Source: Eledone cirrhosa (lineage: Eukaryota). Taken from it: DNA of 64,000 bases. Below are positions 3,929 to 63,232 of the stretch, piece after piece. The stretch's first letter is position 1. Each line of letters starts with the position of its first letter. Under the pieces are notes generated by a model that searched no databases, had not been told where the DNA came from, and saw nothing but the letters and a program-made list of their open reading frames with translations. Position numbers and translations under genes: made by a program. The stretch lies in contig OZ024745.1 of the NCBI GenBank assembly GCA_964016885.1, positions 133,052,001 to 133,116,000 on the forward strand, given 5' to 3'.

Positions 3929-4116
3929 CCGGATTGTGGTAAGGAACCAGAGAGACCATAACGCACGAGAGTACTCAATACTTAGGGTAGTAGAGTGGGT
4001 AATAGGAAAATGTATGACCCCGATGGCAGAGCTCAAGCCGTTTAGACGGCTATTTCTGAGTCCAGAAATAGCCGTCGAAACGGCTTGAGCTCTGCCGTCG
4101 GGGTCATACATTTTCA
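3929..4116 (-). mobile_element. Short PLE-end fold-back, family A
   Basis: Inverted arms ~4003-4058 and ~4063-4116 plus a ~75-nt unpaired tail, flanked by (TA)n. Homologous to 9107-9161, 11803-11862, 26809-27017 and 58069-58246. Confidence 0.8.
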
Positions 4117-4890
4117 TATATATATATATACGGATATATATATATATATATATATATATATATATATATATATATATATATATATATATATATATATATA
4201 TACATATATATATATTATCAATGAGTTATAGACTATGTTGATGAGTATTCAACAGAGTTATGTTCATAATAGATATGAAGCACTCTACAGTTAAAATTTA
4301 TCTGGAGTAGTATAATAAAAATATTAGTAATAAATGGCAATATATCACTATAACAACATAATCTATTTCGTTATATATATATTTCAAGGATACTAATTTA
4401 TAGGATGCACTCTTCCGGCAAAATGCAATATTTGATGTTAGGCACCCTGCAGGGTAAACTAAAGATGACAAAGAGTTCGAAGAATGACCTTTGAGGTGAA
4501 AAGCTACATCCTACACGAGGTGTCTCTGTTATGGCTATCATAGTATTGTCTAGCAGAACAGGTCGGGTCTACTGGAGTAAGCCTCTATAAAACAAAAACC
4601 CTTCTCATTTCACAGACCTCGGCCTCGTGATTAGCAGTGGCTTGTCAGATGATCGACTAATAATTCGAAAAGTTTGGCGAAGCTGCTCCATTTCGCTTAT
4701 AAATCTGTAAGTATGCAGGTGTTGTGAGCCGCATATATACTAGCCATTAGAAAAAGCAAAGTGAATGATTTCCCTTCAATACCGGGTTCAATCGGTGGTA
4801 ACCACAGTAAGTAAGGTACTCAATACATAACAGAGTATAAATATTTAATATAGAAATGGCTTCTACAGCACTATATATATATATATATAT

Positions 4891-5100
4891 AGTAATAATA
4901 ATAAATGTGAAGACTAAAATCCAAAGAGGGCTCGATAAGGATAATTATATATCAAATATATAAAAACCCTAGTGCAAATATTTATTAAAATAACAGATTA
5001 AAGTTTAAGCAAAGAATCGCTGCTTTCACCCTTAAGATCCCGTTAAGGGTGAAAGCAGCGATTCTTTGCTTAAACGTTAATCTGTTATTTTAATAAATAA
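4891..5100 (-). mobile_element. Short PLE-end fold-back, family B
   Basis: Near-perfect arms ~4978-5035 and ~5043-5100 around GATCCCG, tail 4891-4977, (TA)n flanks. Homologous to 56076-56200. Confidence 0.75.
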
Positions 5101-5129
5101 ATATGTATATATATATATATATATATATA

Positions 5130-58246: not shown

Positions 58247-61029
58247 ATACATATATATATATATATATATATATATATATATATATATATATATATATAT
58301 ATATATATATATAGGTATATATATATATATACACATATATATATATATATATATATATATATACTTACATATGTATGTGAATATACAAACACATATATGT
58401 ATATATACATACACATATATGTGTGTGTGTGGTTGTGTGTGTGTGTGTGTGTGTGTGTGTGTGTGTGCGTGTGTATGTGCGTGTGTGTACTCACCAAGCT
58501 GTGTAAAAATTGCCTCCTGTGTTTTGTTTCTTTCATTAACTATATATATTAATATATATATATTGGGGCGAATGTGTATGTGTGTGTGCGTGTGTGTGTG
58601 TGTGTGTGTGTTCGTGTGTGTGTTTGTGTGTGTAACCTACAATTCTTCCGTATTCACATTATATGTTACAAATCGTTTATATTGTGCATTCTATAAAACG
58701 TTAATCCACATATAAGGATTCGTAAGCATTAAAACAAAAAACATTTTTTCCCAATACACACTCAAACATACGTGCACATATGTATGCTTTTTTATCTGTA
58801 TTCAGTATAAACGTACACACATATACCCTTACATAAGCATACAACCTCATATATATATATATGTTAGGGTGTATATAAGTATGTATGTATGAAACTGTGT
58901 ATGAATGTTTCCCTCATTTTCAATCAATTTCAATTTTGTTGCATTGCTTAGTAAAAGAAATTCAGAAATGAAATGCTTTTCTGATAACATTTTAATATCT
59001 AGAATTCTTGCGATTTTTCATTTTATATTTGATAATTATTTTCGTATATATTTATTACATTTTGCCTTTTTGTGATTTTTGTTACTATCAGACTAAATCA
59101 TGTTCTGCGTCTACTACTTTCATTGACAACGAATTAGTTTGGATAGCACTGGGAAATGAAAATTGATTAAAAGCCACTTCTGTTTTGATGCAATATGTAT
59201 GTGCAGATTACAAACAAGTGAATCAGGCAGATTATATTGATTTCTTATATTGGCAGAATCTGTCAGATTTTGTGCAAAACACAAAGTAAGATGTTGTGAT
59301 GTTCATTATTCTCCGAAGACATTTGTGATGTAAACGCATAGATATTTATACACTGATGTTACTGCCTATGTGAATAAAGATGTGTTTCTGGGAATGTAAT
59401 GTATTGGAATCATATTTGAAAATATATATTTACGAAAGAAGAAGAGACACGAGCTTCTCAGTTGCAGCAAGCTGTGTTTATTAAAATCTCACTATACGTT
59501 GACACAGGAAAAATATTATTTCATACCAGCATTAATTCAAAATATATTCTAGCGATATCTAGATTCAACTTTAAACACGACAAATTATATTTGGAAGATA
59601 TTTCATCGTATTGTTCAAATGACGACATCTCTATAATTTCATAAAAAGATCTATTATGAACGTAAATTACTTCAGAAAACTATACATATCAGTTTATATA
59701 TATTATTCAAAAAGTTAATACATATCTTCTATTACACGTTTCTCTTGCTACAATATATGAAACGTATATTTTTCAAAATAAAAATGTATATCTTTTCCTT
59801 TCCTATAAGATATAAGAATGGATACTATTTATTTACGAGAATCATGGCTACGATACCTGCACGTGGACTTGTCATGTTTCTCAATTAATCACATAGACAT
59901 ATATTTATATGGAACTGATAGACTAAGGAGACAAATGTGAGGACTTCGCTCTACTCAGAAATCGAAACTTTATTCCACGCATTTTGGAGCATATTTATGT
60001 TATAACACATAATATACAAGTAATATTATCTAGATTATACGAGAACTGTTAGACATAATATATTATGCCTATTGAATATAAGGTGTAAATAAGATTACAC
60101 ATAAAATGAGATTTCCAATTAAACAATTGGTATATTATTCAGCACTCACCAAATATATGACTCACACCTTTAGATACAAGTAACAATTGTACTAATATCT
60201 ACCTCACTTATCCTTTATCATCAGGTTCCAGCCCAACATTTCCACCTGCCCCTACTACAGGTGATAAGCTAGCTTTGTTTAGTAATAGAATCTCCACCTA
60301 CCTCCAAATCTTACACATTAATATTGTCTTACCATCTGGTTTAGTTGAACAAACGACTTCCAATTACTTTTAATCAAATATAACTTAACTTCTTCTTTGT
60401 ATGTCACTTCTCGCCATCAGCAATAGCTCTTCTTTTTTCTTCCTATATTGTATTCATATCATTTCACTTCCCTTATAAGCTATAATCCTTGGTAAATTGA
60501 ATTCAGACAATTTGCTTTGAAATTCATAAACATCGTGAACACGAATAACCTAAAGATTTAACTCATGCGCGTCGCTACATTTACACAAGAGAAAATCACT
60601 ATTTACAACATCGATAGAGCATTATCTAAGAGTTATACACTCTCAATTTTTCGACACTAACTTTAAGATAGCAAAGCCTCTTTGCGAACAGTCGATGTGC
60701 TAGAGGTTACAGACAAAATATTTTATATTAAATTGTACAACCCTCTTAAAATGAAAACGAGATACCTAGATTATGAGGGAACAATAACTACTGGAAGTTT
60801 AATAAATCCATATCAGTAACTAATGAATCATATATATTGTATCATAGACGGATTATATAACACTACACTACGTGTCTGCACGTGGTTGAATATCATTAAA
60901 ATAACTGCTATTATAAGGAGACACCATAATTTCTCACTATGCTGCGCGATTCCACACATACCATCCATAGATAGACTGACCATCTCACGCCAACAACAAC
61001 TGCAATACTTTTTATTATATTATAGCTAG

Positions 61030-61208
61030 TGAGGACGGTGGATTGGCAGTATCGGTAATGGGCCGGACGCCATGCTTTGCAGCATAGAGTTACACTCCTT
61101 TACGTTCTGAGTTCAAATCCCGCCGAGGTTAGCTTTGCCTTTCTTCCTTACGGGGTTGATAAAATAAAGTACCAGTAATGCACTAGGGTCGATTTAATCG
61201 ACTTTCCC
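61030..61208 (+). mobile_element. Full-length SINE
   Basis: Matches the SINE consensus, including B-box GAGTTCAAATCC. Confidence 0.9.
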
Positions 61209-63027
61209 TGGTCCTGCGCAGATCAGATCAACTAGAATTGTTACTGTATTGTCATGTTGACGGGGATGGATGCAACTAGAAGTAGCTGTAAAAATTTTGT
61301 AAGTTCTAAAATGTATATTTAATAATTTATTTTGTGTTTCGGGGTCGACAAAAGTACGAACGTATGTACCATGTGCTAATACTGTTTCATGTAACTACTG
61401 TACTGGGCTGCGGAGTATATCTATAGATTCTTAGGTAACACAGTATGTAATAAATAACTGTAAGAGCATGGACATGAAAAGTGGGGACTGGATTTCTGAT
61501 GAAATACCAACTGGCATCAGTCAGGCTGATCTCACCTTTCCTGTTCCCATAGTTATTGCATATAAAGGCACTGGTTTTACATGACTCTATATGATAGGGT
61601 GTTGGCTAATATATACATAGTGATGCTTCATAGTGCATCCCCAAATTGTCCGTAGATTATATATTCAATAATTTCACTTGTATTGTCCTGCAATTGCTTT
61701 CACGGATTTGATTTCATATGTGCAGTTAATTATGAAGCCCACCTGCATCTGACACCTGTTAGAGTATCAGTTCCAATTCGCTGTTCACAGTGTCTTCCAA
61801 CAAAAGTATGGAACATAAAACTACTAATGTTATATAAAGAAGAAAATTATAATCGCAGAAAAGTTCTATAATACATTATATTTTATACACTCATTTATAT
61901 CACGCAAATTCTCATGTAATGCACTTACATAAGTTTGAGTTTGTTTAAAATGGGAATAGGTTTTGGAAATAGATATGATATTATTTAGCATTTAACAGAG
62001 TTAAACACGATGTTTCATACGACACGGAGTTCATGAATGTGAACATGTTTTATGTATGAGTGCACTTATGTGAGATAAATAAAAGACGATAGGATGGGTC
62101 GTGATTCAGAAAGAAATAGAGATAGATAATAATTTAATATATTATTATTGTTTGCAGGATTCCGGAAACGCTTATCTGAGTCAGATGCACATCTATCAGC
62201 TACAGGAACTGAATTAAGTATTTAAGAATCAATATCGGATAAAACGAGTTGAAGAATGATATTTATTCAAGCTATGTTCTACGAACAGACTAATGAAACT
62301 GTAGTTGTGACAACAATAGACATTCGTTTTTGAATAGAATATTACTATAATGGTCAAGAATGATTGAATACGTCATACACATTTCTTCACATCACATTAA
62401 CTATCATCATATTTTTCTCATTTCATCTCTTTACAAGAGATAATATATTTTACCTATCTCTAGATTAAGAATAGTTCATTGGAATACGCTTCATTATCAT
62501 AATTAATCTACTAATGAAATTATTGAATTGGGTGACAAGAAATATTTAAGTATGCAATAGATTGTATGATTGAAACATAAAATAACATATATACCTTTTA
62601 AAGTATAATGATTTACCACTGTAGGTGTATGGTGTTGAGTACCAAATGGCGTGCACCTATGTATATACATATATATATATATATATATATATATATATAT
62701 ATATATATATATATATATATATATATCAAGTAAGAATATTTTCGAAACACCGAGTGGGTTTGAAATTATTAGTATTGACGTACATGTACGTCAATACATC
62801 TTTTTCCATTTCGCCGATGGTTCTTAACCCCACTATCAGGCTAAATAATTTCTTTAATTTCTTTAGTCAAAATACGGCGATAGCTTACATTTCATATATA
62901 TATATATATATATATATATATATATATATATATATATATATATATATATATATATATATATATATATATATATATATATATATATATAGAGAGAGAGAGA
63001 GAGAGAGAGAGAGAGAGAGAGAGAGAA

Positions 63028-63232
63028 ATAGTAGCACTACAGTTAGTTCACCCTACCTAGAACAATTGTTTCACCTTATGCCCGCTTTTCAGATGGGACT
63101 AGATTCGCATAAGGTGAAACAATTGTTCTCGCTATGGTGAACTAACTGTAGTGTTACTACTTCTACCAAACTCGTCACATGGACTGAGTGCTCTACCACT
63201 ACGGATATTACCTTCCAGTGTTCTACCTCTTT
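63028..63232 (+). mobile_element. PLE-end fold-back, family M
   Basis: Arms ~63030-63081 and ~63108-63161 containing GAAACAATTGTT, tail with GAGTGC. Lies between (TA)n(GA)n and (TC)n(TA)n. Confidence 0.75.

What the first reader, a model, noticed from the sequence alone, without database searches (positions are those of the whole stretch)
3929..63232. Population of 120-400 bp ribozyme-associated fold-back elements colonising (TA)n microsatellites
Seen: short inverted-repeat inserts or arm pieces at 3929, 4891, 5130, 9107, 11803, 23060, 26809, 42300, 52790, 56076, 58069 and 63028, all within or beside (TA)n, from several families. Most have the apex inside or next to hammerhead sequence. The 5130 copy is homologous to the ends of the protein-coding Naiad at 13630-17860, which ties the class to PLEs. 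Inference: minimal two-arm PLE insertions that superficially mimic MITEs and may be a large, mis-annotated share of this genome.
Basis: partly seen in the sequence, partly recalled or inferred. Interest (0 to 1): 0.75.

Follow-up and report, generated by a model that had tools for sequence, protein, structure and literature searches.

The report
Miniature two-armed Penelope retrotransposon insertions
These short mirror-image DNA pieces in TA repeats are stubs of Penelope-type jumping genes (Hydra group, not Naiad, and not DNA transposons), estimated at about 100,000 in this genome, and their fixed end points suggest that each was likely written from both cut DNA ends using the short leader of the element's RNA.

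Summary
All 12 sites are real. They belong to seven families with one anatomy: (TA)n, a tail-less inverted arm, a variable junction, a forward arm, a 63-162 bp tail, then (TA)n. Six families are collinear with coding copies whose C-terminal GIY-YIG, CxCX5C linker and DKT motif make them Hydra-clade Penelope-like elements. 'Naiad' is wrong, and 13630-17860 is a scrambled fold-back, not an intact gene. They are not MITEs: ends are asymmetric and junctions differ from copy to copy. Inverted arms end at a fixed point (169 of 233). The inner ends of both arms pile up at an initiator-like site (32 of 96 in random DNA, against 5 just upstream), not at the ribozyme cleavage site. Best reading (inferred): both ends of a cut in (TA)n prime reverse transcription at two sites in the mRNA leader, and both copies run out at the RNA start. 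Random sampling gives about 100,000 two-arm copies, 1% of bases. A few family-E copies carry ADAR-type A-to-G clusters. Inverted arms, tails and TA targeting are known; I found the size-limiting wall in no paper searched. This scan had already noted the same system on other DNA of this genome.

The parts
3929..4115 (-). Family A two-arm insert: tail (3929-4006) plus forward arm, and inverted tail-less arm (4059-4115) that reaches the initiator-like +1
4892..5105 (-). Family C two-arm insert, junction in hammerhead stem II region; tail 4892-4979
5134..5506 (+). Family B two-arm insert: inverted arm 5134-5240; forward arm starts at the wall (5239), holds a full predicted type-I hammerhead (core at 5317) and the tail
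9108..9160 (+). Family A single tail-less arm
11803..11861 (+). Family A single tail-less arm starting at the wall
13634..17860 (+). Long rearranged fold-back of a Hydra-clade PLE (family B2): about 1.7 kb inverted arms, broken RT and GIY-YIG pieces in the centre (15155-16410), forward end with tail 17585-17860
23063..23263 (.). Family D old two-arm insert, both arms tail-less, 73% alike; other genomic copies carry a tail; no coding parent found
26809..27015 (-). Family A two-arm insert; both arms end at the wall
42302..42529 (+). Family E two-arm insert; four A-to-G changes shared by both arms; tail 42444-42529
52791..53045 (+). Family F (young) two-arm insert; junction lies downstream of the hammerhead; 162 bp tail
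56077..56197 (-). Family C: last 42 bp of tail joined to a non-overlapping inverted arm that reaches the wall (twin-priming-like product)
58070..58250 (-). Family A two-arm insert, forward arm shorter than inverted arm
63028..63228 (+). Family G two-arm insert, junction inside the hammerhead; flanked by (GA)n/(TC)n then (TA)n

Best explanation
The inserts are short copies of the end (pseudo-LTR) of Hydra-clade Penelope-like retrotransposons set in (TA)n, and each was likely made when both ends of a cut in the TA repeat primed reverse transcription of one RNA at two nearby sites, with both copies likely running out at the RNA's start. Shown: parentage for six of seven families; TA targeting; a fixed tail end and a fixed inverted-arm end; a shared 5' wall; a hairpin motif 2-8 nt past each fixed end (seen at the first end in A, D, E, G, and at the second in A, B2, C); arms of one insert more alike than arms of different inserts. 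Inferred: the wall is a transcription start; the hairpins position the RT; because the second hairpin lies beyond the tail, on the ORF side, tail-bearing minis mostly copy the 5' leader of the element's mRNA (140-280 nt in families with a wall); the two cDNAs are joined at their 3' ends by short homology or fill-in; the second RT often stops early on RNA already paired with the first cDNA. Most minis would then be one-off by-products, with a minority re-copied as whole hairpins.
For: Coding parents collinear with the ends: A (L065, L077), B/B2 (L049, L050, L270), C (L110, L088), E (L174), F (L177 and others), G (L207, L212). Inverted-arm outer end within 5 nt of the family mode in 169 of 233 two-arm copies; both arms tailed in 8 of 233. 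Random sample only: 32 of 96 arm ends at -5..+15 of the wall, 5 of 96 at -26..-6; all loci pooled, 227 versus 19 of 488. The wall sits on YYANW in 6 of 6 references with a wall; chance per family 0.18-0.37 (motif chosen after looking). Inverted arm longer than forward arm by more than 10 nt in 58, the reverse in 17, within 10 nt in 111, of 186 close junctions (18 of 204 with gaps over 30 nt set aside). Common variants shared between the two arms 476 times, unshared 137; within-insert divergence below between-insert in A, B, B2, D, E, G. Second hairpin 6 nt past the tail end in 28 of 30 A loci and 8 nt in 27 of 30 B2 loci. Literature: an anole PLE cuts and extends both strands, starts at two internal sites at the pLTR-ORF junction and is predicted to be a dimer (PMC11167929); the Penelope start site lies in the pLTR (PMC2377424).
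Against: ORF-joined copies do not pile up at the wall: 2 of 55 forward ends, against 15 of 44 for free A/B2 copies in random DNA (p=8e-5), so the wall is not the start of the RNAs that gave long copies. Family F shows no single wall; family C had 0 of 11 random ends at its wall; D could not be tested because the reference ends there. No clean extra-G cap signature before +1. In C and F the arms are no more alike than unrelated copies. Long palindromes can lose their centres after insertion, which could blur junctions and arm lengths. My hairpin pattern missed the first hairpin in B, B2, C and F (in B and B2 the modal end overlaps it). No RNA data were available.
Confidence: 0.6

Rival explanations
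1. Single-primer fold-back: one cDNA made from the 3' end is randomly 5'-truncated, folds back on itself (or an antisense template self-primes, as proposed for rotifer Penelope) and is copied to the tail boundary; later central deletions reshape the junction.
For: Arms share variants. Many junctions are near-perfect palindromes. Self-priming was proposed in PMC3846280. 111 of 186 junctions have arms within 10 nt of each other.
Against: The inverted arm reaches further 5' than the forward arm in 58 cases against 17, including tail-only forward arms (window 56077). Random truncation does not give a sharp wall shared by both arms and by single arms. Tail-less single arms (9108, 11803) show that the inner site can be primed on its own.
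Confidence: 0.2
2. Non-autonomous fold-back units: a few master hairpins are transcribed whole and re-inserted as units by the Hydra RT (a retro-MITE).
For: L154 has A-to-G changes on the same physical strand in both arms at different sites (16 of 16 changes in the inverted arm, 11 of 14 in the forward arm), as expected of an edited hairpin RNA copied whole. 28 of the 30 best matches to 3929 share its junction (read by eye).
Against: Those 30 were selected by likeness to 3929 and sit on several arm-end variants. In the set not selected that way the junction appears in 2-3 of 65 rows, and nearly every other junction is unique. Only 1 of the 3 elements with edit-dominated arms shows the whole-unit pattern. 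Minis lack the second hairpin.
Confidence: 0.13
3. True MITEs moved by a DNA transposase into TA sites.
For: Short, inverted-repeat, TA-flanked, high copy number.
Against: Ends are asymmetric (169 of 233 one-tailed at the fixed point, 8 with both tails). The centre is variable. The same sequence continues into RT/GIY-YIG genes. A-to-G clusters point to an RNA step.
Confidence: 0.02

Closest known systems
Hydra clade of C-terminal EN+ Penelope-like elements (Craig et al. 2021, PMC8557442; includes Hydra-1_Obim)
   Same: RT with DKT and RWR/RWK-type motifs, CxCX5C linker, C-terminal GIY-YIG with CxxC and CxH, 3' type-I hammerhead, (TA)n target; inverted 5' copy and one-sided tail are described there for PLEs in general.
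   Different: Tails here are 63-162 bp, not 30-40 bp. Very numerous ORF-less two-arm minis with a shared 5' wall were not described in the passages, section 11 or supplement rows that I read.
PAc, Poseidon PLE of Anolis (Frangieh et al. 2024, PMC11167929)
   Same: Two internal RT start sites that bracket the tail; both target strands cut and extended; AT-rich target; ribozyme cleavage not needed.
   Different: A different clade. The parts read (1-2 of 4) do not derive inverted arms from two-ended priming or describe leader-sized insertions.
Penelope elements of Adineta vaga (PMC3846280) and D. virilis (PMC2377424)
   Same: Inverted pLTR lacking the tail; Inr-like TCACT in the pLTR; internal promoter with start site in the pLTR.
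   Different: Low-copy, ORF-bearing units; the inverted junction is explained there by self-priming.
Animal non-LTR retrozymes (10.64898/2026.07.22.740005)
   Same: Non-coding, hammerhead-related, PLE-derived.
   Different: Retrozymes are head-to-tail tandems with a full ribozyme per unit; these are head-to-head pairs and most lack a complete ribozyme.
L1 twin priming (recalled, not from a call)
   Same: Both target ends prime one RNA and give an inversion.
   Different: In L1 the two pieces do not overlap and the second site is variable; here both sites are fixed and the copies usually overlap.

Membership tests
Hydra-clade PLE | C-terminal GIY-YIG endonuclease after RT in one ORF | tested here: met
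   L049, L047, L050 ORFs of 520-628 aa
Hydra-clade PLE | CxCX5C linker before the endonuclease | tested here: met
   CNCRNKYNC in L049, CNCRNKSNC in L047; matches the Hydra alignment in the supplement
Hydra-clade PLE | DKG changed to DKT | tested here: met
   SDKT in L049, L295, L304, L077
Hydra-clade PLE | CxxC and CxH motifs near the endonuclease end | tested here: met
   CALC and CKH in L049 and in window 15916-16407
Hydra-clade PLE | Canonical hammerhead in the pLTR | tested here: inconclusive
   Descriptor met in B, B2, E, G (L220) and, with a U4-to-A core, C. A, D and F missed the descriptor; by eye they have core-like halves with variant cores or long stem II. No cleavage assay.
Hydra-clade PLE | Insertion into (TA)n | tested here: met
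   67 of 69 random copies against 11.9% background
Hydra-clade PLE | Phylogenetic placement within the clade | not tested
   No tree with published Hydra proteins was built; placement rests on motifs
Hydra-clade PLE | Coding parent for family D (23063) | tested here: inconclusive
   Same anatomy, but no collinear ORF in 25 loci plus one 4.4 kb extension
Naiad PLE | N-terminal GIY-YIG before RT | tested here: not met
   Endonuclease is C-terminal
Naiad PLE | No canonical hammerhead | tested here: not met
   Full motif at window 5317 and 13734
MITE | Symmetric terminal inverted repeats at both ends | tested here: not met
   Tail on one side only: 169 of 233 at the fixed offset, 8 of 233 with both tails
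MITE | Fixed internal structure across copies | tested here: not met
   Junction differs in nearly all of 65 family-A rows not selected by junction
MITE | Target-site duplication | not testable with these tools
   Hidden inside (TA)n; no related genome for empty sites
Non-LTR retrozyme | Head-to-tail tandem units, each with a full type-I hammerhead | tested here: not met
   Head-to-head pairs; 1 of the 12 window inserts passes the full descriptor

The most novel reading that the evidence does not exclude
Hydra PLE reverse transcriptase, as a dimer, primes both ends of a TA break on twin hairpins in the 5' leader of its own mRNA, so its main product is not the gene but a strong-stop-like mirror pair of the leader. 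This abortive route has written 100,000 or more hairpins into the genome, some of which are transcribed, ADAR-edited and re-copied, so that RNA edits become inherited DNA.
Probability: 0.4. Interest if true: 0.72.

Novelty: new variant of a known kind. Interest (0 to 1): 0.5.

Why it matters
How Penelope-like elements, the closest relatives of telomerase, make their inverted ends and one-sided tail is called open in the papers read (PMC8557442, PMC11167929). Tens of thousands of minimal products with three measurable end points give a ready map of where the enzyme starts and stops, and name the RNA hairpins and start site to mutate in the existing in vitro assay. For annotation, about 1% of a 3 Gb genome consists of inverted repeats that MITE finders could take for DNA transposons. 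They are also a likely large source of double-stranded RNA for editing.

Tried and rejected
Rfam scan: no hammerhead family hit, only chance miRNA-like hairpins. Pfam: no family for the window's PLE fragment. Search with the family-E tail alone found nothing, not even the window's own copy, so it shows nothing; the whole element found 31 candidates. Genome-wide A-to-G excess: not found, rates of A>G and T>C were equal in arms (p=0.69 forward, 0.20 inverted), so editing is limited to a few E copies (5 of 488 arms). Cap-derived extra G before +1: no clear signal. Wall as start of full-length RNAs: not supported. Ribozyme cleavage site as the junction: rejected, junctions lie upstream in most families and downstream in the F and E window copies. 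RNA runs: no RNA holder listed; no reads were laid. Coding parent for D: not found. Empty-site comparison: no relative genome held. Literature: seven searches gave no paper on ORF-less two-arm PLE minis or twin priming in PLEs; subscription journals and bioRxiv supplements were not visible, and Repbase/Dfam were not available.
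Full report
Observation. The window is 33.6% GC and dense in (TA)n. Mapping them on natural reference copies sorts them into families A (3929, 9108, 11803, 26809, 58070), B (5134; its relative B2 is 13634-17860), C (4892, 56077), D (23063), E (42302), F (52791) and G (63028). Eight are an inverted arm joined to a forward arm that runs on into a tail. 23063 has two tail-less arms, 56077 is a tail piece plus a non-overlapping inverted arm, and 9108 and 11803 are single tail-less arms. 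The host looks like an octopus (3.0 Gb; earlier notes say so); I did not test this.

Parentage. The 164-aa frame at 15916-16407 joins an RT N-terminal piece to an endonuclease C-terminal piece. Relatives in the genome have ORFs of 520-628 aa with RT followed by CNCRNKxNC, a GIY-YIG-type YVG core, CALC and CKH, and SDKT near the start. These are the features given for the Hydra clade (PMC8557442, section 11 read whole), and they match the Hydra alignment in its supplement (passages). The window copy is a rearranged fold-back with stops and deletions. Longer copies carry the family ends collinear with such ORFs for A (L065, L077), B/B2 (L049, L050, L270), C (L110, L088), E (L174), F (L177 and others) and G (L207, L212). 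No coding parent was found for D.

Anatomy across the genome. Searches anchored on the tails, on whole inserts, bycatch in flanks and 98 ten-kb stretches at round coordinates (2 of 100 requested did not exist) gave 414 tail-bearing copies, 383 after removing duplicates. The tail end is fixed and flush with TA (67 of 69 in the random set, background 11.9%). The inverted arm starts at a second fixed point 63-162 nt before the tail end: 169 of 233 within 5 nt of the family mode, and only 8 of 233 have tails on both arms. The junction varies: in 65 family-A rows not chosen by likeness to 3929, its junction appears 2-3 times and nearly all others are unique. This excludes a MITE.

The wall. Inner ends of both arms stop at a family-specific limit. 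In random DNA alone, 32 of 96 ends lie within -5..+15 of it, 5 in the 21 nt upstream and 6 further up; 21 of the 32 are family A, and C has 0 of 11. Pooled over all loci the figures are 227 and 19 of 488 (G is biased by its query, and some selected A copies may remain). The wall lies on TTAGT, TCACT, CCACT, TTAGT, TCATA and CCAGT in A, B, B2, C, E and G, which fits the initiator YYANW (consensus recalled). Chance per family is 0.18-0.37, and the motif was chosen after looking. An Inr-like TCACT is noted in a rotifer pLTR (PMC3846280, passages), and the D. virilis start site lies in the pLTR (PMC2377424, passages). The wall is 45 nt inside the hammerhead in A and 5-90 nt upstream of the core in the others, so the ribozyme does not set it. 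Against a simple reading: copies whose tail runs on into the ORF start at the wall in only 2 of 55 cases (5 of 60 loci had no adjoining pLTR; four A loci are near-identical repeats), against 15 of 44 free copies. F has no single wall, and no cap-type extra G was seen.

Two start signals. A hairpin of the form RCTC...GAGYR lies 2-5 nt past the inner fixed point in A, D, E and G (my pattern missed B, B2, C and F). A second lies 6-8 nt past the tail end, on the ORF side, in 28 of 30 A loci, 27 of 30 B2 loci and L088 of C. I had noted the first hairpin myself (note); the twin-hairpin idea came from earlier scan notes and I checked it here. The second hairpin is not part of any mini, so tail-bearing minis likely come from RNA that spans the pLTR-ORF junction, that is, the mRNA leader. 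This agrees with the anole PLE, which binds early in the ORF, starts at two internal sites that bracket the tail, and extends both target strands (PMC11167929, parts 1-2 of 4).

One RNA, two primers. Arms of one insert share common variants 476 times and differ 137 times, and are closer to each other than to other copies in six of eight references (not C or F). The inverted arm reaches more than 10 nt further 5' than the forward arm in 58 of 186 close junctions, the reverse in 17. A cDNA folding back on itself cannot copy what it has not made, unless the centre was deleted later, which I cannot exclude. The limiting case, tail only plus inverted arm (window 56077; L084, L086, L101), is the product expected of twin priming (L1 model recalled).

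RNA editing marks. There is no general A-to-G excess. Five of 488 arms, in three family-E elements, are dominated by one change, always A>G or its complement, with tails almost clean. L169 and window 42302 share their A-to-G changes between arms, as if one edited RNA was copied twice. L154 has A-to-G on the same physical strand in both arms at different sites, as if a whole edited hairpin was copied. ADAR as the cause is inferred.

Abundance. The random 980 kb hold 67 short tail-bearing copies of my eight references, 34 of them two-armed (104-598 bp, 1.0% of bases), which scales to about 104,000 (bootstrap 64,000-147,000); all matches to the ends cover 2.3%. A reference-free search found 137 short inverted repeats, 73 TA-flanked, of which only 26 matched my references; several others show the same arm-plus-tail form (output partly cut). 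The class may thus be two to three times larger.

Known and new. Inverted 5' copies, one-sided tails, hammerheads and TA targeting are published for PLEs. In seven searches I found no account of mass ORF-less two-arm minis, of the wall, or of two-ended priming in PLEs. The retrozyme preprint (part 1 of 5 read) treats tandem units. An O. vulgaris repeat annotation (PMC13282606, passages) lists PLE, MITE and unclassified classes without this structure in the passages seen. Earlier notes of this scan report the same system, the wall, the hairpins and the editing on other DNA of this genome; they are not independent evidence. Verdict: real, a new variant of a known kind, of value mainly as a test bed for the PLE insertion mechanism.

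Noticed in passing
window 62727-62893: 167 bp insert between two (TA)n tracts; resembles the arms of a fold-back seen in L296:6450-6779, so likely a further family.
   Followed up: partly
window 28667-28846: TA-flanked imperfect inverted repeat not matching my eight references; no hammerhead core seen by eye.
   Followed up: no
window 8272-8550: 279 bp insert between (TA)n tracts without obvious inverted arms; ends in a tail-like stretch.
   Followed up: no
window 9809-9848: Lone 40-50 bp piece of the B2 tail end on the minus strand, between TA tracts.
   Followed up: partly
window 17913-18079 and 20040-20206: Inverted pair (86%) that includes a very common SINE-like repeat; a short fold-back of the same repeat lies at 57407-57558.
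   Followed up: no
window 29082-32040: Minus-strand fragments that look like non-LTR retrotransposon RT and restriction-like endonuclease ends (label from my own knowledge), broken by (ATT)n.
   Followed up: no
window 53606-55899: Degraded LINE: RVT_1 hit at 54218-55054 (E 9e-9) with an endonuclease-like frame upstream on the minus strand.
   Followed up: partly
L079 and L065 (family A parent end): The wall of the most abundant family lies inside a long stem II loop of its hammerhead, so RNA starting there would lack the CUGA half and could not self-cleave; A is 27 of 69 random copies.
   Followed up: partly
window 5262-5330 (family B end): A splice-donor-like AG|GTATGT about 27 nt after the wall; D. 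virilis Penelope has an intron 46 nt after its start. Not tested.
   Followed up: no
L175:1211-1669: Family E insert with tails on both arms; one arm unedited, the other with T>C in its 5' part and A>G in its 3' part, suggesting two templates or two rounds of editing.
   Followed up: partly
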